A stretch of 32,000 nt of DNA from Thermodesulfobacteriota bacterium (GCA_026625185.1 CP113000.1:1455622-1487621), one strand, 5' to 3'; positions 3-9,314 are shown, counted from the stretch's first letter. Notes: generated from the letters alone by a model not told the origin. Numbers and translations are program-made.

Positions 3-164
3 TTCGGCCATAAGAATTTTGGGGATAAAATACCTGCTGATTTTGAAGTCAAAAATCAGACAGGTTTTGTGTTGCCTGAAAAATACCCCTGGGAAATTGT
101 GCCCGATTTCATTAACGTGATTATATATTTAACAAACCCAATTAATAACCAACAAAGGAGATAG
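3..164 (+). CDS. 3' end of an unidentified protein-coding gene (5' part lies outside the window)
   Basis: Frame 3 is open from the window edge to TAG at 162-164 (53 codons, ...FGHKNFGDKIPADFEVKNQTGFVLPEKYPWEIVPDFINVIIYL...). It is absent from the ORF track because it has no start in the window. The next gene's RBS and ATG follow within 7 nt, which looks operonic. No recognisable domain. Confidence 0.35.
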   Translation, partial: FGHKNFGDKIPADFEVKNQTGFVLPEKYPWEIVPDFINVIIYLTNPINNQQRR

Positions 165-170
165 TAAAAA

Positions 171-374
171 ATGAATAAATTTCCAGAAACACCACCGCCC
201 GGAGATATGGAACGCAAACAAAGAATGCGTAGACTCCATAAAACACTTATCGAGCAAGGTCTTTATGTAAGACCTGTTTACTTGAATGAGTTGATGTCTG
301 AATACGGTTACTTTATCGTCTCGGTTGATGATCCATATTTACTATACGAGACTCAAGGGCAAGACCAAGGATAA
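171..374 (+). CDS. small hypothetical protein (67 aa)
   Basis: ATG at 171 is preceded by AGGAG (156-160). The sequence is basic and non-repetitive, with no recognisable motif. Its last 22 nt overlap the 3' end of the convergent HNH gene. Confidence 0.5.
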   Translation: MNKFPETPPPGDMERKQRMRRLHKTLIEQGLYVRPVYLNELMSEYGYFIVSVDDPYLLYETQGQDQG

Positions 375-655
375 TTATCACCCTTTGCCCTATTATTCTC
401 CCATTGGAGAGGTTGGAGATTATCAAGATTATCTGAACCTCCTTTGGCAGTTGGCTTTATGTGATCTATTTCCCATCCTACGTCTGAGTTTATATTTCCA
501 TGTTCTGAATACTTTATGGGCTTACCACAAATATCATATCGCCATTCTGCCGGACTCCAATGTTTCCCGTCCTTATCGGGAACTATTTTTCTTTTTGCCC
601 AGACAGCTCGCTTTGTTTGTTCATCGGCCGTCTTGAATGAATAAACGTAAGTCAT
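353..655 (-). CDS. stand-alone HNH endonuclease (100 aa)
   Basis: HNH signature ...WEIDHIKPTAKGGSDNLDNLQPLQWENNRAKG. ATG at 655-653 with AGGAG 9 nt upstream (complement of 665-669). Confidence 0.85.
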   Translation of the reverse strand: MTYVYSFKTADEQTKRAVWAKRKIVPDKDGKHWSPAEWRYDICGKPIKYSEHGNINSDVGWEIDHIKPTAKGGSDNLDNLQPLQWENNRAKGDNYPWSCP

Positions 656-810
656 GATTGATTTCTCCTTTCTGTGATTTAATTTTTCTCATCAATCAAA
701 GAAAGTTTTATTTTTTTGCTCTTTATTGGTTTCTTTTTTTAAGTGGTGGGGCAGATAAAATTGTTTCCATAATGGTTTTAAATTTATCGGCTGGGATTTT
801 TTTTAGAAGT

Positions 811-1314
811 TTATTTTTCGTCTTCCTCTGGTTCTTCTTCTGGCTCTTTTTCTTTTCCATCAAATAATCCTAATTGAATATCTGTTGGTTCTCTAACATC
901 TATTTTTGGAAAACCATCGTTTTTGCTTCTCTTAATTAAATCATCACCATCGTAAGTTTCAAGAATAGTTAGTTTTGCTTTCAATGCACTTGCAACATGA
1001 ATAGCATCCTTTGGTGGAACATTGTGATCCCATACCACCTCTTGTGCAAGACGAGCAACCCAACGATCGAGATTGATAATGGTTATGTAGTCGTTTTCAA
1101 AAAATTCAAAAACTTTTTCTTTTTTATCTTTTCCAATTGGTTTACTACCTCTATATCTTAGAACTTCGGCAATAGTTAGTGCAGATGTGAATAACTGAAT
1201 TTTACCCTCTTCGGCTGCATCTAAAATAGCTTTACATTTTGGGGCACGTCCATGCTCATCGTTTAGGTAGGCAATAATAACGCTACTTTCCCAATATCTT
1301 TTTTCGGGTTTCAA
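811..1314 (-). CDS. PIN-domain (VapC-like) ribonuclease with acidic C-terminal tail
   Basis: PIN-like layout: N-terminal YWESSVIIAYLNDE, TSALTIAEVLRY, and D..VASALKAKLTILETYDGD with conserved acidic positions. The ORF has no internal Met, so the start must be TTG at 1314-1312. That TTG overlaps the upstream gene's stop (TTGA), with GAGG 9 nt upstream. The C-terminus is EKEPEEEPEEDEK. Confidence 0.8.
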   Translation of the reverse strand: MKPEKRYWESSVIIAYLNDEHGRAPKCKAILDAAEEGKIQLFTSALTIAEVLRYRGSKPIGKDKKEKVFEFFENDYITIINLDRWVARLAQEVVWDHNVPPKDAIHVASALKAKLTILETYDGDDLIKRSKNDGFPKIDVREPTDIQLGLFDGKEKEPEEEPEEDEK

Positions 1315-2036
1315 TTAAAAATACCTCGAATATCGTCATGATGAGGAAGCTCACGATTAAATGGGAACCTAAAAATTTTTTCCACTTCTATAGAAATTGG
1401 CGTTCCGTCTTCCCTATAATGGATTAATCCAGTTATAGATACCCTTCTTTCAAATGCATCCTTTGCATCCTCAAGTTGTTCATAAGTAATAATACAATGT
1501 ATCAAACGATTAGATATTTCATCCCGAACTTCAACCTCATAGCGATTTCTTTTTGCTAAGACACGAAGCTCCCCCTCTATAGTTCCAATTCCAGAATGTG
1601 TCCATCTAAAAAGTGTTTCTATGTTTGTGCTTATTTTGGGGGAAATTTCTTGCTTTCTTTTTCCAAAAAAAATGGAAGTCGGAACCCCGTTATTTTTAGT
1701 TAAATCAGATAGCCCCTTAATTTTTTCAAGGGCTTTCTCAGAAAAATTTATAGGTTTTTCTGCTTTTTTTTGGATTACCCGCAATCCTTTTTTGAATGTA
1801 TTAGAAACCGCTAAAGGTTTTATTTTGGGGTCAGCGGGTGGCTCTGCAACTGCCATAATAACTTGACTCCCCTGCTTTACCATAGCAGACCAGACTATTG
1901 CCTTTTTATTTCCATAAAGACTATCTGTGATCTCTTCTAATGTTTCAAAAAAGGATTTAACTCCTTGGATAAACATAGCAGAAGGAATCTTGGAGGCATC
2001 AAATTTCATTTCAATGGAGACGAGTTTTTTATTCAT
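1311..2036 (-). CDS. orphan protein of unknown function (241 aa from ATG 2036; 249 aa if TTG 2060 is used), upstream partner of the PIN gene
   Basis: Long ORF on the same strand between the transposase and PIN genes. ATG at 2036-2034 has GGAG (complement of 2045-2048) 8 nt upstream. The track start at 2060 is a TTG overlapping the transposase stop. I recognise no motif. Lys-rich central linker with beta-rich flanks. Confidence 0.7.
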   Translation of the reverse strand: MNKKLVSIEMKFDASKIPSAMFIQGVKSFFETLEEITDSLYGNKKAIVWSAMVKQGSQVIMAVAEPPADPKIKPLAVSNTFKKGLRVIQKKAEKPINFSEKALEKIKGLSDLTKNNGVPTSIFFGKRKQEISPKISTNIETLFRWTHSGIGTIEGELRVLAKRNRYEVEVRDEISNRLIHCIITYEQLEDAKDAFERRVSITGLIHYREDGTPISIEVEKIFRFPFNRELPHHDDIRGIFN

Positions 2037-2056
2037 GTTAAATTCTCCCGTTTTTT

Positions 2057-2983
2057 TCAATTTGTAATAGCAACTATTGGTGAGTCCTTGTAAAGCAGTC
2101 TTTTCCCTTCAATACCACAAAGAGCCATTACACTCCGTTCAGCATCGTTGTTTTTTCTGCGGTTATATCTAAAGTTAAATTCAGATAGGTATCTATGAAG
2201 GTGATTTTTGCCAACATGGTGATAAACCCCAATTATGCCACGCTTTAAGATGCTAAAATAACCTTCAATAGTGTTGGTGTGAATATTTCCTCGGACGTAT
2301 TCCCTTTTACCATGATTTATTACCTCATGGGAAGCAAATTTTTTATCCAACCCACGATAAGACATAAAATCATCGGTCATAATTGTAGAAGATTTTTCAA
2401 CATTTTGGCTAATAATAAACTTTAAATTTTCGCCAGTTACCCTTTCAACTGGCATAGACATAACATTTCCATTTCTTTCAACCAAGGCAAAAACTGGAGT
2501 TTTATTTTCCGCGCCACGTCCTCTTTTTCCATGACCTTTACCACCTATGTAAGTTTCATCGGCTTCTATAGTTCCTTGAAATTTTGTTGTGGGTTTTTTA
2601 TCCATGGCGTATCGAATGCGGTGACTCATAAACCATGCTGTTTTATAAGTAACCTTGAGCATTCGATGGAGTTGGTGAGAACTCATTCCCTTTTTAGAAG
2701 AACAAATCAAAAAAGAAGCTAACAGCCATTTATGAAGTGGTATATGGCTTTTCTCAAAAACCGTCCCCACGGTTACACTAAATTGTTTTCGGCACTTTTT
2801 ACACTTCCAGACACCTTGACGGACAGGTGCTGTAGACTCCTTTTTGCCCTTTAAGGCATAGTGGTGATCAGCACTACCGCAATGAGGACAAATAGAACCA
2901 TGGGGCCATCTTATTCTTTCAAGATAAAGTCTCGCTTCATTTTCATCAGTAAAGTATGGTGCATCAAATCCTATATTTTTCAT
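2057..2983 (-). CDS. IS1595-family (ISXO2-like) DDE transposase with N-terminal zinc ribbon
   Basis: N-terminal CPHC...CKKC zinc ribbon (ERIRWPHGSICPHCGS...WKCKKCRKQFSVTVGTVFE). IS1595-type DDE core motifs EADETYIGGK, IMTDDFMSYRGL and HTNTIEGYFSILKRG...HLHRYLSEFNFRYNRR. GGAGG RBS 7 nt before ATG 2983. Confidence 0.9.
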   Translation of the reverse strand: MKNIGFDAPYFTDENEARLYLERIRWPHGSICPHCGSADHHYALKGKKESTAPVRQGVWKCKKCRKQFSVTVGTVFEKSHIPLHKWLLASFLICSSKKGMSSHQLHRMLKVTYKTAWFMSHRIRYAMDKKPTTKFQGTIEADETYIGGKGHGKRGRGAENKTPVFALVERNGNVMSMPVERVTGENLKFIISQNVEKSSTIMTDDFMSYRGLDKKFASHEVINHGKREYVRGNIHTNTIEGYFSILKRGIIGVYHHVGKNHLHRYLSEFNFRYNRRKNNDAERSVMALCGIEGKRLLYKDSPIVAITN

Positions 2984-2993
2984 AATATTACCT

Positions 2994-3034
2994 CCATTTG
3001 ACTAAAATATAACACCGTCAAATGGGTTTGTCAA
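2994..3034 (-). promoter_or_regulatory. near-consensus sigma70-type promoter with a palindromic operator-like site
   Basis: On the minus strand: TTGACA (3034-3029), 17-nt spacer, TATATT (3011-3006), then GGAGG RBS and ATG. A perfect 9-bp inverted repeat, ccatttgac (2994-3002) / gtcaaatgg (3017-3025), brackets the -10 box. Confidence 0.55.
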
Positions 3035-3053
3035 GTATATAATTGCGTTCATT

Positions 3054-3087
3054 AATTTGTCGCCGTTTTTGTTACAATTTGTCGCCG
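3054..3087. repeat. two 12-bp perfect direct repeats (aatttgtcgccg), start-to-start spacing 22 bp, upstream of the -35 box
   Basis: aatttgtcgccg occurs at 3054-3065 and again at 3076-3087. The spacing is about two helical turns. The repeats lie 20-55 bp upstream of the -35 hexamer of the transposase operon promoter. Confidence 0.6.
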
Positions 3088-3135
3088 ATTCTATTAAATC
3101 CGACACTTACTATGGAAGCAAAATGGTAGCAAGCC

Positions 3136-3168: not shown

Positions 3169-3181
3169 CTGAATTTATTTA

Positions 3182-3256
<75 letters not shown>

Positions 3257-3302
3257 TGAAAAAAATATTTTAGCTGTTTCCTCTGATTCTGTCAACTTAA
3301 AT

Positions 3303-3406: not shown

Positions 3407-3523
3407 CTCTCCCTTGCCTCCAAATTTTTTTCCCTTTTGCGCATAGTCAAAAAACCTTTTTTGTGATAAAGTGTTATCCAGAATTTTTTTAACTGCAAAA
3501 ATATTTTTCGCCCAGAGGCCAGC

Positions 3524-5170
3524 ATGAACCTTCACCCGCTCGCGGGAAAACCCGCTCCACTGGAAATTCTCATTGATGTTTCCGCTCTTGAAAAAGCCTA
3601 CTATGAAGGCCAGCCGGATATGAGTGACCAAAATCAACAAGTAAGTTTCGGCACCAGTGGCCATCGAGGCAGTCCCTTAGAAGGCACCTTTACCGAAGCT
3701 CATATTCTGGCTATTACCCAAGCGATTTGTGACTACCGGAGCACCCAAGGCATCACCGGCCCTCTTTTTGTGGCCAAAGACACTCATGCGGTTTCTACCC
3801 CTGCCCAACGTACTGCGCTGGAAGTCTTAGCCGCCAATGGTGTTGAGACCATTATTCAGTCCGAGGATGGTTTCACTCCTACACCGGTTATATCGAGAGC
3901 TATCCTGGTTTATAATCGAGAACGAAAAAAAACAGTAGCAGATGGAATTGTTATCACTCCCTCGCACAACCCGCCGGCTGATGGAGGGATCAAATATAAC
4001 CCCCCCAACGGCGGCCCTGCTGACGCGGATATAACCGGCTGGATTCAAGACCACGCAAACGAGATACTCAGGGAGCATAACAAAAAGGTAAGGCGGATGC
4101 CTTATGCGTTAGCGCTTAAAGCTTCTACCACCCGCGAGGAAGATTTCGTCCTGCCCTACGTAAAAGATTTAGCGGCAGTCATTGATATGGATATCATTCG
4201 CTCCGCGGGAGTTAAAATCGGCATTGATCCCCTCGGCGGTTCTTCGGTTGCTTATTGGGAACCAGTCAAGCGTCACTTCGAGATTGACATTACTATGGTT
4301 AATCCCGCTATTGATCCGACCTTTCGTTTTATGACGGTTGACCACGACGGCAAAATTCGAATGGATTGTTCCAGCCCCTATGCCATGGAGAGTCTGGTAA
4401 GCTTAAAAGATCATTTTGATATCGCCTTTGGCACCGATACTGACGCGGACCGGCACGGCATTGTCACCCGTTCTATGGGCCTCATGAATCCCAATCACTA
4501 TCTGGCAGTGGCGATACATTATCTGCTTACTCATCGGCCTGAATGGCCCGCAAGGTCAGTTGTCGGAAAAACCCTGGTCAGCAGCAGTCTCATTGACCGG
4601 GTGGTTGAAGCCTTACGCCGAACTCTTTGGGAAGTGCCGGTCGGTTTTAAGTGGTTTGCTCCGGGATTGTATGACGGCTACTGTTGCTTTGGGGGTGAAG
4701 AAAGCGCGGGCGGTAGTTTTCTCCGCAAAAATGGTACGGTCTGGACCACTGACAAAGACGGCCTCATTTTCGGTTTGCTTGCTGCCGAGATTACCGCGCG
4801 TACCGGGAAAAATCCGAGCGAGCATTATCAGGAGCTTATCTCGCGGCTGGGAACTCCTTACTATTCCCGGATTGATGCCCCGGCCACGCCGGAACAAAAA
4901 AACGCCTTTAAACGCCTCACCCCCGACATTGTAGCCGCGAAAGAACTGGCGGGCGAACCTGTCCTTGCAAAGCTTACGCATGCTCCCGGCAACAAAGCGC
5001 CTATCGGTGGTTTGAAGGTGGCGACAAAAAACGGGTGGTTTGCAGCCCGCCCTTCGGGAACTGAAAATATTTACAAGCTCTACGCGGAAAGTTTTAAGAG
5101 CCAAGCTCACCTCAATGCTATTATTGAACAGGCTCAGCAGATTATAAAAAACGCTTTGGAAGGTAACTAA
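3524..5170 (+). CDS. pgm: phosphoglucomutase (alpha-D-glucose phosphate-specific)
   Basis: Collinear with enterobacterial Pgm as I recall it. Active-site TSGHRGS, metal loop [15 protein letters not shown], and C-terminal ARPSGTE. Confidence 0.95.
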
Positions 5171-5198
5171 AAAGGCTGAGAAAGAAAGGGGCGTCACG

Positions 5199-6854
5199 AT
5201 GTTAAAGAGAATGAATCCCACTAAAACCAAAACCTGGCAAAGCCTCTTATCCCATCTCGAAAAGATAAAAACCACTAACCTGCGAGATCTTTTCACTCAA
5301 GACCCGGCGCGGTTTCAAAAATTTTCTCTCCAATTTAATGATATTTTGGTGGATTATTCGAAGAATCGGATTACTGAAGAAACCATAGGTCTTTTAATTG
5401 CGTTAGCTCAAGAAATAGATTTATCGGATGCGGTCGAAAAAATGTTTGCGGGCGATAAAATCAATGAAACTGAAAATCGCGCGGTCTTGCACGTTGCCTT
5501 GAGAAACCGGAAAAACACACCGATTTACCTTGACGGCAAAGATGTGATGTTACAGGTCAATGAAGTCCTTCAAAAAATTAAAACCTTCTCAGAACAGATA
5601 ATTTCCGGTAAGTGGAAAGGATATACCGGCAAGAAGATCTCTGATCTGGTTAATGTCGGGATCGGAGGATCAAACCTTGGGCCTCTTATGGTGACTGAGT
5701 GTTTACGGCCTTATGCTCAGGAAGGTCTATCGGTCCATTTTGTTTCTAATGTGGATGGCACGCACCTTGCTGAGACTTTGAAGAAATTAAATCCTGAAAC
5801 CACCCTTTTTATGGTTGCCTCCAAAACCTTTACTACCCAGGAAACCATGACCAATGCCTTCTCCGCCCGAAACTGGTTTTTAAACCAGGCAAAAGACCCC
5901 CGGCAGGTCGCGAAACATTTTGTGGCGATTTCCACCAACACGGAAAAAGTAAAAGCCTTTGGGATTGACGCGGACAATATGTTTATTTTCTGGGACTGGG
6001 TGGGTGGTCGTTACTCCCTCTGGTCAGCGATTGGTTTATCCATCGCATGTTACCTGGGTTACGAAAACTTTGCAGAATTACTGGAAGGCGCTTTTGAGAT
6101 GGACTGCCATTTCAGGGAAGCGCCTTTTGAAAAAAATATTCCCGTGATCCTGGGATTGATCGGCATCTGGTACAACAACTTCTTTGGCGCAGAGACTGAA
6201 GTCATGGTGCCTTATGACCAGTATATGCGCCAGTTTCCCGCCTACTTCCAGCAGGGAGACATGGAGAGCAACGGCAAATCACGTGATCGAAACGGTGACC
6301 AGGTAACTTACCAGACCGGGCCCATTATCTGGGGTGAACCCGGAACCGATGGCCAGCATGCCTTTTTCCAGCTCATTCACCAGGGGACAAAACTGATTCC
6401 AGCTGATTTCTTGGCTCCCGCAATCAGTCATAATCCCTGGGGCGATCATCACCTGATATTACTATCAAACTTTTTTGCCCAGACCGAAGCCCTCATGAAA
6501 GGAAAAACCAAAGAGGAAGTAACCGAAGAATTAAAAAAAGAAGGCAAGACCGACCAAGAGATCCAAAGGCTCTATCCTTTTAGGGTGTTTAAGGGCAACA
6601 AGCCGACCAACTCAATCCTCTTTAAAAAACTTACCCCGCGCGTCCTGGGAAACCTCGTTGCCATGTATGAACACAAGATTTTTGTCCAGGGAGTAATCTG
6701 GAATATCTTCACCTTTGATCAGTGGGGCGTGGAGCTGGGCAAACTGCTTGCCCAAAAAATCCTGCCGGAATTACAAGATAATATACCGGTTTCTTCTCAC
6801 GACTCTTCTACCAATGGCTTGATCAATACGTTTAAGAAGATGAAAGCTGAATAG
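5199..6854 (+). CDS. pgi: glucose-6-phosphate isomerase
   Basis: Motifs [34 protein letters not shown] and WGVELGK. 551 aa. 28 nt downstream of pgm. Confidence 0.95.
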
Positions 6855-6881
6855 TAGGGGCACGGCACGCCGTGCCCCTAC
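6854..6881. terminator. bidirectional terminator hairpin between convergent pgi and gpmA
   Basis: Perfect 12-bp GC-rich stem gtaggggcacgg / ccgtgcccctac with a 4-nt loop. It starts at the last base of the pgi stop codon. A T-run follows on the + strand a few nt downstream. Confidence 0.7.
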
Positions 6882-6888
6882 TGGTTGG

Positions 6889-7635
6889 TTATTTTTTCTT
6901 CAACTGATTAGCAACTGCTTCGGTTGCTCTTTTTACCGCTTCCGGATCGCCGAGGTAATAACTTCGAATGGGAGTTAAATCGTCATTAAGCTCGTAGACC
7001 AGGGGTATCCCGGTAGGAATATTAAGTTCAACAATTTTGTCTTCAGGGACATTATCAAGATATTTTACTAAAGCCCGCAGGCTGTTCCCGTGAGCAGCGA
7101 TAACCACCCGCTTGCCCTCACGGACTGTAGGCGCGATAGTCTCGTGCCATAACGGCAGAAACCGCGCCACCGTGTCTTTTAAACATTCGGTAAGCGGAAA
7201 TTCTCCGGGCTTCATGTCAGCGAACCGGGGATCATTCCCGTTATAGCGGGGGTCATCTAGCGTGAGCGCCGGCGGAGGGACATCATAGCTTCGTCGCCAG
7301 ATCTGAACCTGTTCCATCCCGTGTAGTTCAACCATTTCGGTTTTATTTAAGCCCTGGAGTGCTCCGTAGTGACGCTCATTGAGGCGCCAGCTGTTGAAAA
7401 CCGGAACCCACATAAGGTCCATCTCCTCGAGAACAATCCAGAGGGTTTTTATCGCCCGTTTGAGAACGGACGTGAATGCTATATCAAAAACATATCCTTC
7501 CTTGGCTAAAATGCGCCCCGCCTGAAGAGCTTCATCAACACCTTTTTGGCTCAACCCGACATCGGTCCAGCCGGTAAAGCGGTTTTCCTTATTCCAAATA
7601 CTCTCTCCGTGACGAATCACCACTAATTTTTTCAT
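6889..7635 (-). CDS. gpmA: 2,3-bisphosphoglycerate-dependent phosphoglycerate mutase
   Basis: [19 protein letters not shown] catalytic His motif, the second His motif [10 protein letters not shown], and 248 aa. The start ATG overlaps the stop of the upstream GT39 gene (ATGA). Confidence 0.95.
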
Positions 7636-9314
7636 TGCCTTAACTCCTTTTCAACCTTTTTTTCTAAAAGGATAAAACTTCGATGCCCGATTTTGTTTTT
7701 CTCAACCATCTGGATGTTTGCCGGAATCAAAGTTTTTTCCTTTAACCTGATAAAACTGTTTTCCCCCAATAAAATGAGTCCAACCGATGGGGAATTAAAA
7801 GCCAGCATTAATTCCTCGTTGGTTTTAAGTTCTTCAATTTTATTTAATCCGGTGTAAAAGTTGAACGGTGCAAGCTTAAGCCCATAAGCAACGATTTCTT
7901 TATCTTTAGGCAAATGGCGAATAATGCTTTGACACATAGGTTTGGCTGACTTTAAAGGGTTAACGCCGGGTAAGACAACTTCGATCGCCCCCAAAAAACC
8001 AACCACCATAATAAGTACTATGGTCAAAAAACTCGCGGTTACCTTATTTTTGCGAATAAAAAAAAGTATCAGATATCCTCCCGCCAGGAAAAGCACCATA
8101 AAAATAATTAGGTGAGGAAAAAATCGAAGCAGTCCTGATACCGGAGTTTTAATAAAAGGGAATATACAAACCCCTATTCCTCCAAGAATAAAAATTCCTC
8201 CCAGAACATAAAAAGGAAATAGTAAAAGTTTTGAAACCATACCTTCCCGCTCCGGGGAAGAGATAAAAGAGCTTATAAAACCTCCGAGGAGCAAAGAAGC
8301 GGCCGGATAGAGCGGAAGAAGATAAAGTTCCCGTTTGCTGGTTGAGAGGCTAAAAAAAATAAAAATTGTTAAAAACCAGCACAGAGGGAAGTAGAAATTT
8401 AACCGATGCTCTCTCTGGTCTTTTGAAAATCCCCATAAAAGCGCCCCGGGTAACAAAACTATCCAGGGAATAAACCCCGCGGGGAACACCTCGAGATAAT
8501 AATAGAAAGGCTGTTGGTGTGTCCAGGTATCAGCGAACCGCTCAATATTTTGTCGGAAAAGTATTTTCTGAGTATACGCCTCTCCTCCTTGAACACACGC
8601 CGGTATAAGCCATGCTGAGATTATGAGGATAAAAATCACGAGACCCCACGGAATTTCAAGTTTTTTAAAATGCCTGAAGTTTTTGATTGCCGTTAAATAA
8701 ACTACCATCGTTAAAAATGGCAGCAGAAAACCTACCGGCCCCTTAGTCAAAACCCCTATCCCCATAACAACGTATGGTATAAGATAAAAAGACCGGGATC
8801 TTTTTTCTTCCTGCAATCCCAAAAGGAAAAAAGTAATAGTTAGCGTTACCCAAAAGCATAAAGCCATATCAATATTGGCCCGTCTGCCCAGCCAAAAAAA
8901 TTCAACACTCGTCAACAGCCCCAGGGCGGCAAAAAAACCTGCTTTCTGATCAAAGAGACGTTTTCCGATAAAAAACGTAAGCATAATACAACCCAGGGCC
9001 GCAAGCGCAGAAGGCAGCCGGGCGCTAATTTCATCCACCCCTCCCGTCAGAAAAGAAAAAGAAGCGATCAGCCAGAAGAATAAAGGTGGCTTTTCCGAAT
9101 AAATTTCACTATTGAGGTGAGGCAAAGTCCAGTCTCCGGTTGCGCGCATTTCCTGTGCCACCTGAGCGTATCGGGGTTCATCCGGGTTCCAGAGGTCCCA
9201 ACCATTGAGGTTAAGAAAAAAGATTAACGAAGCCACAATAATAAGAAATACCACATTACCTCTCGAAGAGCTTAAAAAAAACTGGGCAGCCTTCCCGGCC
9301 GTCTCCTTACCCAT
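7632..9314 (-). CDS. GT39-family (ArnT/PMT-like) polyprenyl-phosphate-dependent integral membrane glycosyltransferase
   Basis: 560 aa and highly hydrophobic, with many predicted TM segments. N-terminal loop motif [14 protein letters not shown] is typical of ArnT/PMT enzymes. Overlaps the upstream GT2 gene by 8 nt. Confidence 0.85.

What the first reader, a model, noticed from the sequence alone, without database searches (positions are those of the whole stretch)
811..3087. IS1595-type transposase, an orphan protein and a TTG-started PIN nuclease packed into one strongly promoted operon: passenger-carrying IS or a new toxin/defence module
Three minus-strand genes have almost no intergenic space. 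The transposase stop is TGA 2057-2059. The next gene starts either at TTG 2060 (overlapping) or, more convincingly, at ATG 2036 with GGAG 8 nt upstream. That gene's stop, TGA 1311-1313, overlaps the only possible PIN start, TTG 1314-1312, because the PIN ORF has no internal Met; GAGG lies 9 nt upstream. The operon sits behind a near-consensus TTGACA-17-TATATT promoter, which is unusual for IS transposases because they are normally weakly expressed. The transposase looks intact: it has the CPHC/CKKC zinc ribbon and candidate catalytic residues in ADETY, MTDDF and NTIEGY. A weak-start nuclease translationally coupled to an upstream protein is a toxin-antitoxin-like layout. However, the partner is about three times the size of a VapB-type antitoxin and has no recognisable DNA-binding motif. 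The IS1595 family is known to include members that carry passenger genes. Two readings remain open: (i) a transporter IS carrying an addiction or defence cargo, or (ii) a domesticated transposase working with a nuclease pair.
Basis: partly seen in the sequence, partly recalled or inferred. Interest (0 to 1): 0.75.

Follow-up and report, generated by a model that had tools for sequence, protein, structure and literature searches.

The report
Cargo-carrying IS1595 insertion sequence with PIN module
The three genes belong to a complete 2.9-kb jumping gene of a known family (IS1595). Besides its transposase it carries a toxin-like PIN nuclease, a previously undescribed but widespread partner protein, a tiny overlapping gene and an HNH nuclease, so it is a known kind of element with a partly new cargo.

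Summary
Imperfect 28-bp inverted repeats (116-143 and 3020-3047) flanked by a perfect 8-bp duplication, TTCATTAA, delimit a 2,932-bp IS1595-family transporter IS.

It holds an intact zinc-ribbon/DDE transposase, the 'orphan' (X), a VapC-like PIN, an overlooked small Lys-rich gene (723-860), an HNH gene and orf67.

X is not an orphan. A full HMM search finds 2,262 cluster representatives. Its model shows an N-terminal domain, a C-terminal OB fold and a conserved, low-confidence C-terminal tail. A PIN gene followed X in all 14 distinct contexts read, both inside IS1595 elements (Thermodesulfobacteriota, alphaproteobacterial plasmids, metagenomes) and alone in chromosomes.

Related transposases with the same ends carry other or extra cargo (a restriction-modification pair, DUF3892 and others). 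The pair is therefore passenger cargo, not a domesticated transposase complex.

The near-consensus promoter has its -35 inside the inverted repeat and is conserved in the close relatives.

Best reading: an active-looking tIS whose X-PIN pair is a toxin-antitoxin-like addiction or defence module with an unusual OB-fold antidote. The function is inferred, not shown.

The parts
108..115 (.). Left copy of the 8-bp target-site duplication, TTCATTAA
   Evidence: Read directly from the sequence. It is identical to 3048-3055 and lies immediately outside the inverted repeat.
116..143 (+). Transposase-distal terminal inverted repeat, CGTGATTATATATTTAACAAACCCAATT
   Evidence: Repeat finder hit I1. The consensus ATTATATAYTTRACAAACCCA occurs only twice in the 32-kb window, against 0 expected. 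The same sequence forms the ends of related elements.
171..374 (+). orf67, a 67-aa passenger ORF of uncertain reality (AAAGGAG ribosome-binding site; overlaps the HNH 3' end by 22 nt)
   Evidence: Called as WAC08914.1, a single-member cluster with no family hit.
353..655 (-). HNH endonuclease passenger gene (100 aa, McrA-like)
   Evidence: Pfam HNH 1.3e-7. An 84-member cluster annotated as McrA. Elsewhere it follows a 420-aa ATPase-like gene, outside any IS.
723..860 (-). Small Lys-rich ORF (45 aa from ATG 860; the TTG at 863 gives 46 aa). It overlaps the last 50 nt of PIN in another frame and carries the conserved motif F-x-x-[AVI]-[LVM]-x-x-[ILF]-[LAV]...P.
   Evidence: Present after PIN in the IS-linked copies L004, L013, L014, L008, L025 and L027, and truncated in L001. 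Absent after the stand-alone pairs. L004 and L014 differ mainly at synonymous third positions. No family hit.
811..1314 (-). VapC-like PIN nuclease (167 aa, TTG start overlapping the X stop as TTGA). Acidic residues E9, E50, D103, D122. Disordered acidic C-terminal tail.
   Evidence: Pfam PIN 1.7e-13. AF2 model pLDDT 86.8. Best PDB fold matches are VapC toxins, with target-normalised TM-score 0.7-0.75. Residues from the alignments.
1311..2060 (-). X, the PIN partner. It is 241 aa from ATG 2036, or 249 aa from TTG 2060, which overlaps the transposase stop. N-terminal alpha/beta domain, C-terminal OB fold (about residues 147-223), conserved C-terminal tail.
   Evidence: Family of 2,262 representatives, no Pfam model. 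AF2 pLDDT 83.6. OB-fold matches to LysRS, SSB and Stn1. A PIN gene followed it in all 14 distinct contexts read (-28/33-35, 39, 41-43, 68, 72, 97).
2057..2983 (-). IS1595-family transposase (308 aa): zinc ribbon C32/C35/C61/C64 and D142, D204, E240, K247
3006..3034 (-). Sigma-70-type promoter TTGACA-17-TATATT (TG-extended -10), with the -35 inside the inverted repeat
   Evidence: 11 of 12. The position is conserved in L002, L004, L013 and L014.
3020..3047 (-). Transposase-proximal terminal inverted repeat (reads CGCAATTATATACTTGACAAACCCATTT on the minus strand)
3048..3055 (.). Right copy of the 8-bp target-site duplication, TTCATTAA

Best explanation
SHOWN. Window 116-3047 is a complete 2,932-bp transporter insertion sequence (tIS) of the IS1595 family. 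It is inserted in the spacer beside tRNA-Arg(CCG) and made an 8-bp duplication.

INFERRED, transposition. The zinc-ribbon/DDE transposase binds the 28-bp terminal repeats and moves everything between them. Its promoter has the -35 hexamer inside the transposase-proximal repeat, so bound transposase probably represses it.

SHOWN and INFERRED, operon. The same transcript probably continues through X, PIN and the small ORF, and possibly HNH. The short or overlapping junctions are shown; translational coupling is inferred from them.

INFERRED, cargo function. X-PIN is a type II-like toxin-antitoxin, addiction or abortive-defence pair.
- PIN is a VapC-like Mg-dependent RNase that arrests growth.
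- X is its cognate antidote or regulator.
- X holds PIN inactive through its conserved, low-confidence C-terminal tail (ELP...RGI, residues about 224-241).
- The OB fold of X binds nucleic acid, either for autoregulation or as a trigger sensor.

SHOWN and INFERRED, benefit to the element. Such cargo would penalise loss of the IS or of its replicon, or would pay the host with defence. That would explain why the pair has stayed linked to this IS lineage. The slot between PIN and the distal repeat collects other selfish or defence genes: HNH here, and a restriction-modification pair in a sister element.
For: Element boundaries.
- Inverted repeats plus a perfect 8-bp duplication.
- Four relatives have perfect 8-bp duplications: L013, L025, L028, L037.
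- The Logan contig L024 equals the IS plus exactly 30 bp (k-1) on each side.
- GC is about 0.35 inside the element and 0.45-0.5 in the flanks.

Transposase. It looks intact.

Cargo status.
- Related transposases with the same ends carry X-PIN-small plus a ThaI-like restriction enzyme and a methyltransferase (L004). Others carry DUF3892 plus a hypothetical protein (L028), or other DNA (L026, L036, L037).

Autonomy of the pair.
- X-PIN occurs without a transposase in a Planctomycetota MAG, in a scaffold whose protein also occurs in an 8.8-Mb assembly, beside a serine recombinase, and elsewhere.
- Starting from the PIN side, P0273 is also preceded by an X.

PIN is VapC-like. Fold matches, four acidic residues and NCBI naming of relatives as VapC toxins.

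X is antidote-like.
- It lies upstream and its stop overlaps the PIN start.
- P231 and G238 are invariant, and L230 and I239 nearly so, across 32 divergent members.
- The tail has low pLDDT, 60 then 36.

Precedent. TA pairs, including PIN toxins, sit within the transposition module of Tn3-family transposons (PMC7157771). The tIS concept was defined on the IS1595 family (cited in PMC3129680).
Against: - No toxicity, neutralisation or RNase activity has been shown.
- X is three times the size of VapB antitoxins and has no AbrB, RHH, HTH or Phd domain.
- Neither protein matches any PADLOC defence model.
- The first catalytic residue of PIN is Glu here, where 117 of 120 relatives have Asp.
- The role of the small ORF is unknown, and it is specific to the IS-linked copies. 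This hints at a tie to the element that a plain TA model does not explain.
- Several pairs with no intact transposase still sit next to a remnant of the transposase C-terminus (L008-L011, L038-L040, L044 and L046). Autonomy of the pair therefore rests on fewer independent cases: L012, L016, L017, L018.
- Co-folding of X with PIN could not be run.
Confidence: 0.6

Rival explanations
1. X-PIN (with or without the small protein) is mainly an anti-phage abortive-infection module. X is a sensor whose OB fold recognises phage single-stranded DNA, RNA or an SSB-like protein and then releases or activates the PIN nuclease. The IS is a vehicle that spreads small defence genes. This overlaps with the best explanation and differs mainly in the trigger.
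For: - Co-cargo in the same slot is defence-type: an McrA-like HNH here and a restriction enzyme plus methyltransferase in L004.
- Stand-alone pairs sit in mobile or island contexts, namely Prim-Pol, serine recombinase and prophage regions.
- The OB fold resembles SSB and anticodon-binding domains.
- Full-length structural relatives occur in phages.
Against: - No PADLOC model matches.
- No match of X in 50,697 phage or 72,556 plasmid records by tblastn.
- There is no phage-challenge data.
- Some copies are in ordinary chromosomal neighbourhoods.
Confidence: 0.22
2. X, PIN and the small basic protein are accessory transposition factors of this IS1595 lineage. For example, a structure-specific PIN nuclease and an OB-fold ssDNA binder could cut or process the non-transferred strand, as TnsA does for Tn7. 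The stand-alone pairs would then be relics of decayed elements.
For: - The transposase-X-PIN-small order is kept across transposases only 47-49% identical and across phyla.
- The junctions are short or overlapping.
- The small ORF occurs only in IS-linked copies.
- Several pairs with no intact transposase carry transposase C-terminal remnants and a stray terminal repeat.
Against: - Elements with the same ends and perfect 8-bp duplications lack X-PIN altogether (L028, L037, L026). The transposase therefore does not need these proteins.
- Pairs in L012, L016, L017 and L018 show no transposase remnant or terminal repeat.
- The PIN fold matches VapC RNase toxins rather than FEN-type DNA nucleases.
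Confidence: 0.08
3. The transposase is domesticated and now works with the nuclease pair as a fixed cellular system.
For: Only the tight operon layout and the strong promoter.
Against: - Intact terminal repeats and a perfect target duplication.
- GC content is foreign to the flanks.
- The assembly graph breaks exactly at the element ends.
- Relatives sit at unrelated sites in plasmids, prophages and chromosomes, each with its own duplication.
Confidence: 0.03

Closest known systems
Transporter IS (tIS) of the IS1595 family, ISNwi1-like subgroup (Siguier, Gagnevin & Chandler 2009, cited in PMC3129680)
   Same: - Zinc-ribbon plus DDE(7)K transposase.
- Terminal inverted repeats of about 28 bp, with ends of the type GGnnATTAT.
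- An 8-bp target duplication.
- Passenger genes between the transposase gene and the distal repeat.
   Different: - The subgroup assignment rests on an end consensus recalled from ISfinder, which I could not check here.
- The window copy starts with CG rather than GG.
- The conserved X-PIN-small cargo was not found described in the literature library.
VapBC type II toxin-antitoxin systems
   Same: - A PIN toxin of about 150 aa with a VapC-like fold and four acidic residues.
- The partner gene lies upstream and its stop overlaps the toxin start.
- Occurs in mobile and chromosomal contexts.
- NCBI names relatives 'VapC family toxin'.
   Different: - The partner is about 245 aa, with an OB fold and no AbrB, RHH, HTH or Phd DNA-binding domain.
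- The PIN profile is only marginally similar in sequence to solved VapCs (E = 0.034).
- The window's PIN has Glu at the first acidic site.
- An extra small downstream gene is present in the IS-linked copies.
Toxin-antitoxin pairs embedded in the transposition module of Tn3-family transposons (Lima-Mendez et al. 2020, PMC7157771)
   Same: - A TA-type pair, including PIN toxins, sits next to the transposase gene of a DNA transposon.
- It behaves as a stable part of the element rather than as occasional cargo.
- It appears to have been acquired or retained repeatedly.
   Different: - A different transposon family: IS1595, with no resolvase or res site.
- A different antitoxin type.
- Here the pair is co-directional with the transposase gene and apparently co-transcribed downstream of it.

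Membership tests
IS1595 family insertion sequence | Transposase with a DDE_Tnp_IS1595 catalytic domain | tested here: met
   Pfam PF12762 9e-43; NCBIfam NF033547 1.5e-67, cut-off 75 bits.
IS1595 family insertion sequence | N-terminal zinc ribbon (CxxC...CxxC) | tested here: met
   PF12760 3e-15. C32, C35, C61 and C64 are invariant in 8 relatives.
IS1595 family insertion sequence | Conserved catalytic D, D, E (or N) with K/R seven residues after the third | tested here: met
   D142, D204, E240 and K247 are invariant.
IS1595 family insertion sequence | Terminal inverted repeats | tested here: met
   28 bp, 23 of 28 matching, at 116-143 and 3020-3047. The consensus is found twice in the window against 0 expected. 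The same ends occur in 9 other elements.
IS1595 family insertion sequence | 8-bp target-site duplication | tested here: met
   TTCATTAA on both sides. Perfect 8-bp duplications in L013, L025, L028 and L037.
IS1595 family insertion sequence | Membership of the ISNwi1 subgroup (end consensus ggnnatTAT, DDEK) | tested here: inconclusive
   Relatives begin GGCGATTAT or GGTGATTAT; the window copy begins CGTGATTAT and CGCAATTAT. The subgroup consensus is recalled from ISfinder and could not be checked with these tools.
IS1595 family insertion sequence | Demonstrated mobility | not testable with these tools
   Indirect evidence only: a k=31 contig ends exactly 30 bp outside both ends. No empty site was found in IMG/VR. 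A possible second copy (WAC09102.1) could not be located.
Transporter IS (tIS) | Passenger genes unrelated to transposition inside the terminal repeats of an otherwise IS-like element | tested here: met
   Five ORFs other than the transposase lie inside the repeats. Cargo varies among related elements.
VapBC-type type II toxin-antitoxin | Toxin has the PIN fold of VapC | tested here: met
   AF2 pLDDT 86.8. Foldseek top PDB hits are dominated by VapC and FitB toxins, with target-normalised TM-score 0.7-0.75.
VapBC-type type II toxin-antitoxin | Four conserved acidic active-site residues | tested here: met
   E9, E50, D103 and D122, all acidic. The first is Glu instead of the usual Asp (117 of 120 relatives have Asp). 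The Glu is shared with the nearest relative, 67% identical.
VapBC-type type II toxin-antitoxin | Small upstream antitoxin with an AbrB, RHH, HTH or Phd DNA-binding domain | tested here: not met
   X is 241-249 aa with no such domain in Pfam or NCBIfam. Its fold is an N-terminal alpha/beta domain plus an OB fold.
VapBC-type type II toxin-antitoxin | Antitoxin and toxin genes adjacent or overlapping and co-occurring | tested here: met
   TTGA overlap in the window. A PIN gene followed X in all 14 distinct contexts read (-28/33-35, 39, 41-43, 68, 72, 97).
VapBC-type type II toxin-antitoxin | Toxin arrests growth and the antitoxin neutralises it by direct binding | not testable with these tools
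   Needs expression experiments.
Catalogued anti-phage defence systems (PADLOC v2) | Match to a defence-system protein model | tested here: not met
   No hit for the transposase, X or PIN at E <= 1. HNH gave only weak hits to the Cas9 HNH domain.

The most novel reading that the evidence does not exclude
X defines a new, widespread class of antidote or regulator for VapC-like PIN nucleases. It is built on an OB fold with a toxin-binding C-terminal tail. In one ancient IS1595 lineage, X-PIN plus a small overlapping-frame protein has become an integral four-gene transposition and maintenance unit, analogous to TA pairs in Tn3 transposons and possibly coupling nuclease release to transposase expression or to excision.
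Probability: 0.3. Interest if true: 0.6.

Novelty: new variant of a known kind. Interest (0 to 1): 0.4.

Why it matters
The IS itself is an ordinary kind of element; IS1595 members with passenger genes are documented. Three things are new.

- **A large uncharacterised PIN-partner family.** The PIN partner belongs to a family with no Pfam model and no solved relative, and 2,262 cluster representatives. It replaces the usual small DNA-binding antitoxin with an OB-fold protein.
- **Long linkage to one IS lineage.** The pair, plus a hidden small gene, has travelled with one IS1595 lineage across phyla.
- **A cargo slot.** The slot next to the pair collects restriction-type genes.

If the pair proves to be a TA or defence module, it adds a new antitoxin architecture. 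It would also extend to simple insertion sequences the idea, established for Tn3, that transposons carry addiction modules as part of their core.

Tried and rejected
**Attempts that gave nothing**
- The empty-site junction GCCCGATTTCATTAATTTGTCGCC has no match in IMG/VR.
- tblastn of X, and of the Roseomonas X, against plasmids and phages found nothing beyond the query's own record.
- PADLOC, PHROGs and NCBIfam have no family for X. Pfam and NCBIfam have none for the small ORF.
- A PDB sequence search with the X profile gave only noise.
- Rfam finds only the two tRNAs.
- A locus search in viral contigs with the divergent X alignment failed because no block was conserved enough.
- Literature searches for IS1595 with PIN or TA cargo, and for OB-fold antitoxins, found nothing specific.

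**Lead left unresolved**
- The look-up of the 305-aa transposase WAC09102.1, a possible second genomic copy, found no record. It is identical to the window protein from residue 5 (304/305 over the aligned 305 aa) and may simply be the same gene called with a different start.

**Ideas rejected**
- PIN is dead because of the D-to-E change. The same Glu occurs in the closest relative (67% identical) and the other three residues are invariant.
- The promoter is an anomaly. It is conserved in position across the close relatives, and its -35 is part of the repeat.
- The small ORF is an artefact of purine-rich DNA. The motif lies downstream of the PIN stop, is kept between low-GC and high-GC elements, and shows synonymous-site divergence.
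- The neighbour-joining trees of X and PIN were too shallow to decide between single and repeated capture.
Full report
**1.

Three minus-strand ORFs lie at 2057-2983, 1311-2060 and 811-1314.
- The first is an IS1595-family transposase: Pfam DDE_Tnp_IS1595 9e-43, Zn_ribbon_IS1595 3e-15, NCBIfam transpos_IS1595 1.5e-67.
- The last is a PIN domain protein: PF01850 1.7e-13.
- The middle protein hits nothing in Pfam, NCBIfam, PADLOC or PHROGs.

- The transposase stop overlaps TTG 2060 as TTGA.
- ATG 2036 follows a GGAG.
- The stop of the middle gene overlaps the PIN TTG start as TTGA, with GAGG 9 nt upstream.
- PIN has no internal Met.

The TTGACA-17-TATATT site at 3034-3006 scores 11 of 12.

In an alignment of eight related transposases, C32, C35, C61, C64, D142, D204, E240 and K247 are invariant.

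**2. The element is larger than reported and has clean ends**

A repeat search found inverted arms at about 108-143 and 3020-3055. Read closely, these resolve into two parts.
- 28-bp imperfect inverted repeats, 23 of 28 matching. One is 116-143, CGTGATTATATATTTAACAAACCCAATT. The other is 3020-3047, which reads CGCAATTATATACTTGACAAACCCATTT on the minus strand.
- A perfect 8-bp direct repeat, TTCATTAA, immediately outside them at 108-115 and 3048-3055.

The core ATTATATAYTTRACAAACCCA occurs exactly twice in the 32-kb window, against 0 expected.

The element is therefore 116-3047, 2,932 bp. GC is about 0.35, against 0.45-0.5 in the neighbouring pgm and pgi genes. It lies between tRNA-Arg(CCG) (3181-3257) and DNA to the left of the window. 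In longer contigs that DNA holds a Dam-type methylase and phage-like or island-like genes.

Inside the repeats there are three further ORFs.
- An HNH endonuclease, 353-655 (PF01844 1.3e-7).
- orf67, 171-374, a singleton of doubtful reality.
- A small ORF, described in section 6.

**3. Independent support for the boundaries and for mobility**

Six public contigs carry the identical locus. One of them, the Logan contig L024 (2,992 bp), is exactly the IS plus 30 bp on each side. From my own knowledge, Logan assemblies use k = 31. A contig ending k-1 bases past both ends is then what a graph produces when filled and empty alleles coexist. This is suggestive, not proof. The predicted empty junction was not found in IMG/VR.

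**4. The 'orphan' (X) belongs to a large family with an OB fold**

- The word-indexed search found only 16 relatives.
- A full HMM search of 1.84 billion cluster representatives found 2,262 at E <= 1e-3 and 200 at E <= 1e-30, nearly all about 245 aa.
- An AlphaFold model built from the 16-sequence alignment has pLDDT 83.6. It shows an N-terminal alpha/beta domain and a C-terminal five-stranded barrel with the helix between strands 3 and 4.
- Foldseek matches that barrel to the anticodon-binding OB of lysyl-tRNA synthetases, and to SSB, Stn1/Ten1 and ExoVII.
- One family member hits Pfam tRNA_anti-codon directly, at 7e-4.
- Three uncharacterised phage proteins match over the full length, at E about 1e-9.
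- Among the most conserved columns across 32 divergent members are P231 and G238 (invariant) and L230 and I239 (nearly invariant). These lie in a C-terminal tail modelled with low confidence. Type II antitoxins use tails of this kind to plug their toxin; that comparison is my inference.

**5. X and PIN are a fixed pair, found with and without the transposase**

A PIN gene of 150-190 aa followed X, overlapping or within a few bases, in all 14 distinct contexts I read.

| Locus | Context |
|---|---|
| L001 | beside a Prim-Pol island |
| L002/L003 | prophage region |
| L004-L007 | metagenome contigs |
| L008-L011 | metagenome contigs |
| L012 | Planctomycetota MAG |
| L013, L014 | metagenome contigs |
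| L015 | short contig |
| L016 | ordinary chromosomal neighbours |
| L017 | metagenome contig |
| L018 | Woesebacteria, next to a serine recombinase |
| L025 | Roseomonas plasmid |
| L027 | Methylobacterium plasmid |
| L038-L047 | reached from the PIN side |

The PIN subfamily has 1,078 word-index hits at E <= 1e-8, and NCBI names members 'VapC family toxin'. Its model has pLDDT 86.8. The model is closest to solved VapC and FitB toxins, with target-normalised TM-score 0.7-0.75. Sequence similarity to those structures is marginal, E = 0.034.

The four acidic positions in the window protein are E9, E50, D103 and D122. The first is Asp in 117 of 120 relatives and Glu only in the window protein and its nearest relative, which is 67% identical. 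I read this as a tolerated variant, not a fresh lesion.

**6. The pair is passenger cargo of a tIS lineage, but a remarkably persistent one**

The same ends (GGCGATTATATAYTTGACAAACCC...) and the same order, transposase-X-PIN, recur widely.
- In metagenomic elements whose transposases are 54-58% identical: L002/L003, L004-L006, L014, and L013, which has a truncated transposase and a perfect duplication TAATGGAG.
- In alphaproteobacterial plasmids at 47-49% identity. Roseomonas marmotae p1318-1 (L025) has a perfect duplication TATCTTTA; its X matches the family profile at 2e-15 and its PIN at 5e-14. Methylobacterium oryzae pMOC1 (L027) has the same gene order.

Related elements with the same ends and perfect duplications carry other cargo.
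- DUF3892 plus a 256-aa protein (L028, duplication AATATAAT).
- About 1 kb of other DNA (L037, duplication TAACGTAT).
- 1.9 kb of other DNA (L036).
- 0.83 kb of other DNA (L026).

L004 has a ThaI-like restriction enzyme and an N6/N4 methyltransferase in the slot between PIN and the distal repeat. That is the slot occupied here by HNH and orf67.

Variable cargo within conserved ends is the definition of a transporter IS, a concept introduced for the IS1595 family (Siguier et al. 2009, as cited in PMC3129680). Because X-PIN-free elements transpose (they have duplications), the transposase does not need the pair.

A small Lys-rich ORF overlaps the PIN 3' end in another frame. In the window it runs 723-860, 45 aa from ATG 860 with AGGA upstream.
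- It is conserved in all IS-linked copies: L004, L013, L014, L008, L025, L027, and truncated in L001. The motif is F-E-E-A-L-x-x-L-L-K-x-K-P.
- It is absent after the stand-alone pairs L012, L016, L017 and L018.
- L004 and L014 differ there mostly at synonymous third positions, so it is coding.
- Its function is unknown.
- The acidic C-terminal tail of the PINs in the window's close clade is encoded by the same purine-rich stretch.

Some copies with no intact transposase still retain remnants.
- L008-L011 keep a remnant of the transposase C-terminus, and L008/L009 also keep a stray terminal repeat.
- The L038 locus has an 81-aa ORF directly upstream of X that ends in the transposase C-terminal motif RYLAEFDFRYNH. 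The same 81-aa ORF is called upstream of X in L039, L040, L044 and L046.

Part of the stand-alone population therefore descends from decayed IS copies. Small neighbour-joining trees could not settle single versus repeated capture.

**7. The promoter**

The -35 TTGACA is part of the transposase-proximal repeat. The -10 lies 17 bp downstream in the window and in L002, L004 and L014; L013 has TTGGCA-17-TATAAT. It is thus a conserved feature of the close relatives. It follows the classic IS arrangement in which transposase binding to its own end can repress transcription; that is established knowledge of IS biology, not tested here. Its strength is therefore not evidence for domestication.

**8. 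The start codon of X remains open**

ATG 2036 aligns with most homologue N-termini and is the start chosen by the gene callers. In L002 and L014, however, an ATG overlaps the transposase stop (ATGA) at the position equivalent to the window's TTG 2060. The encoded K-TGG extension is conserved, although this could equally reflect the Shine-Dalgarno sequence.

**9. Mechanism and verdict**

Shown:
- A complete IS1595-family tIS.
- An intact-looking transposase.
- A conserved X-PIN(-small) cargo.
- A variable defence-type slot.

Inferred:
- X-PIN works as a type II-like toxin-antitoxin, addiction or abortive-defence pair.
- The VapC-like RNase is held in check by the C-terminal tail of X.
- The OB fold of X binds nucleic acid.

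The nearest precedent is the TA pairs, including PIN toxins, embedded in Tn3-family transposition modules (PMC7157771).

The pair fails one defining VapBC feature, a small antitoxin with a DNA-binding domain. I describe it as working like a VapBC system, not as a member. No paper in the library describes an OB-fold antitoxin or this IS1595 cargo.

Overall this is a known kind of element with a new cargo variant. Interest is moderate.

Noticed in passing
window 3054-3096: A tandem-like direct repeat, AATTTGTCGCCGTTTTTGTTA / AATTTGTCGCCGATTCTATTA (22-nt spacing), lies just outside the IS, between it and tRNA-Arg. The right-hand target duplication overlaps its first bases. It may be an attachment or regulatory site of the neighbouring island.
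   Followed up: no
L019 9035-12927 (DNA to the left of window position 1): Beyond the IS the locus continues with a D12-class (Dam-like) methyltransferase, a Peptidase_C92 protein and a large Laminin_G_3 protein. The IS therefore sits at the edge of a phage-like or island-like region next to tRNA-Arg(CCG).
   Followed up: partly
L030-L034; window 353-655: The HNH protein's cluster-mates (at least 90% identical in protein, 77% in DNA) sit elsewhere directly downstream of a 420-aa AAA_16-like gene, with no IS. DNA similarity to the window is limited to the HNH gene plus 16 nt. HNH may normally be half of a two-gene ATPase-nuclease system and is carried here without its partner.
   Followed up: partly
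L016 6732-7187: One chromosomal stand-alone PIN has lost two of the four acidic residues (YWCS and TLAQL in place of YWDS and TIAEV), while its X partner is intact. It is probably a decayed toxin.
   Followed up: no
window 811-860 and the close-clade PIN relatives: The close-clade PINs end in a disordered, strongly acidic tail (EKEPEEEPEEDEK). Its purine-rich coding DNA also encodes, in another frame, the Lys-rich N-terminus of the small ORF. This is a short stretch of dual coding.
   Followed up: partly
protein clusters of the window's transposase: The 3.3-Mb Thermodesulfobacteriota genome lists the transposase as WAC09102.1 (305 aa). That number is out of sequence with its neighbours WAC08914-WAC08919. 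It could be a second copy elsewhere in the genome or an annotation quirk. The look-up failed.
   Followed up: partly
L004 880-4911; L028 about 3414-5924; L037 about 6834-8845; L036: Sister elements with the same ends carry, respectively, a ThaI-like restriction enzyme plus an N6/N4 methyltransferase, DUF3892 plus a 256-aa protein, and uncharacterised DNA. This IS group looks like a general shuttle for small selfish or defence genes.
   Followed up: partly
L004 versus L005, right flank: Two contigs share the same element and the same left flank but have different right flanks. This could reflect a second insertion context, recombination between copies, or an assembly chimera.
   Followed up: no
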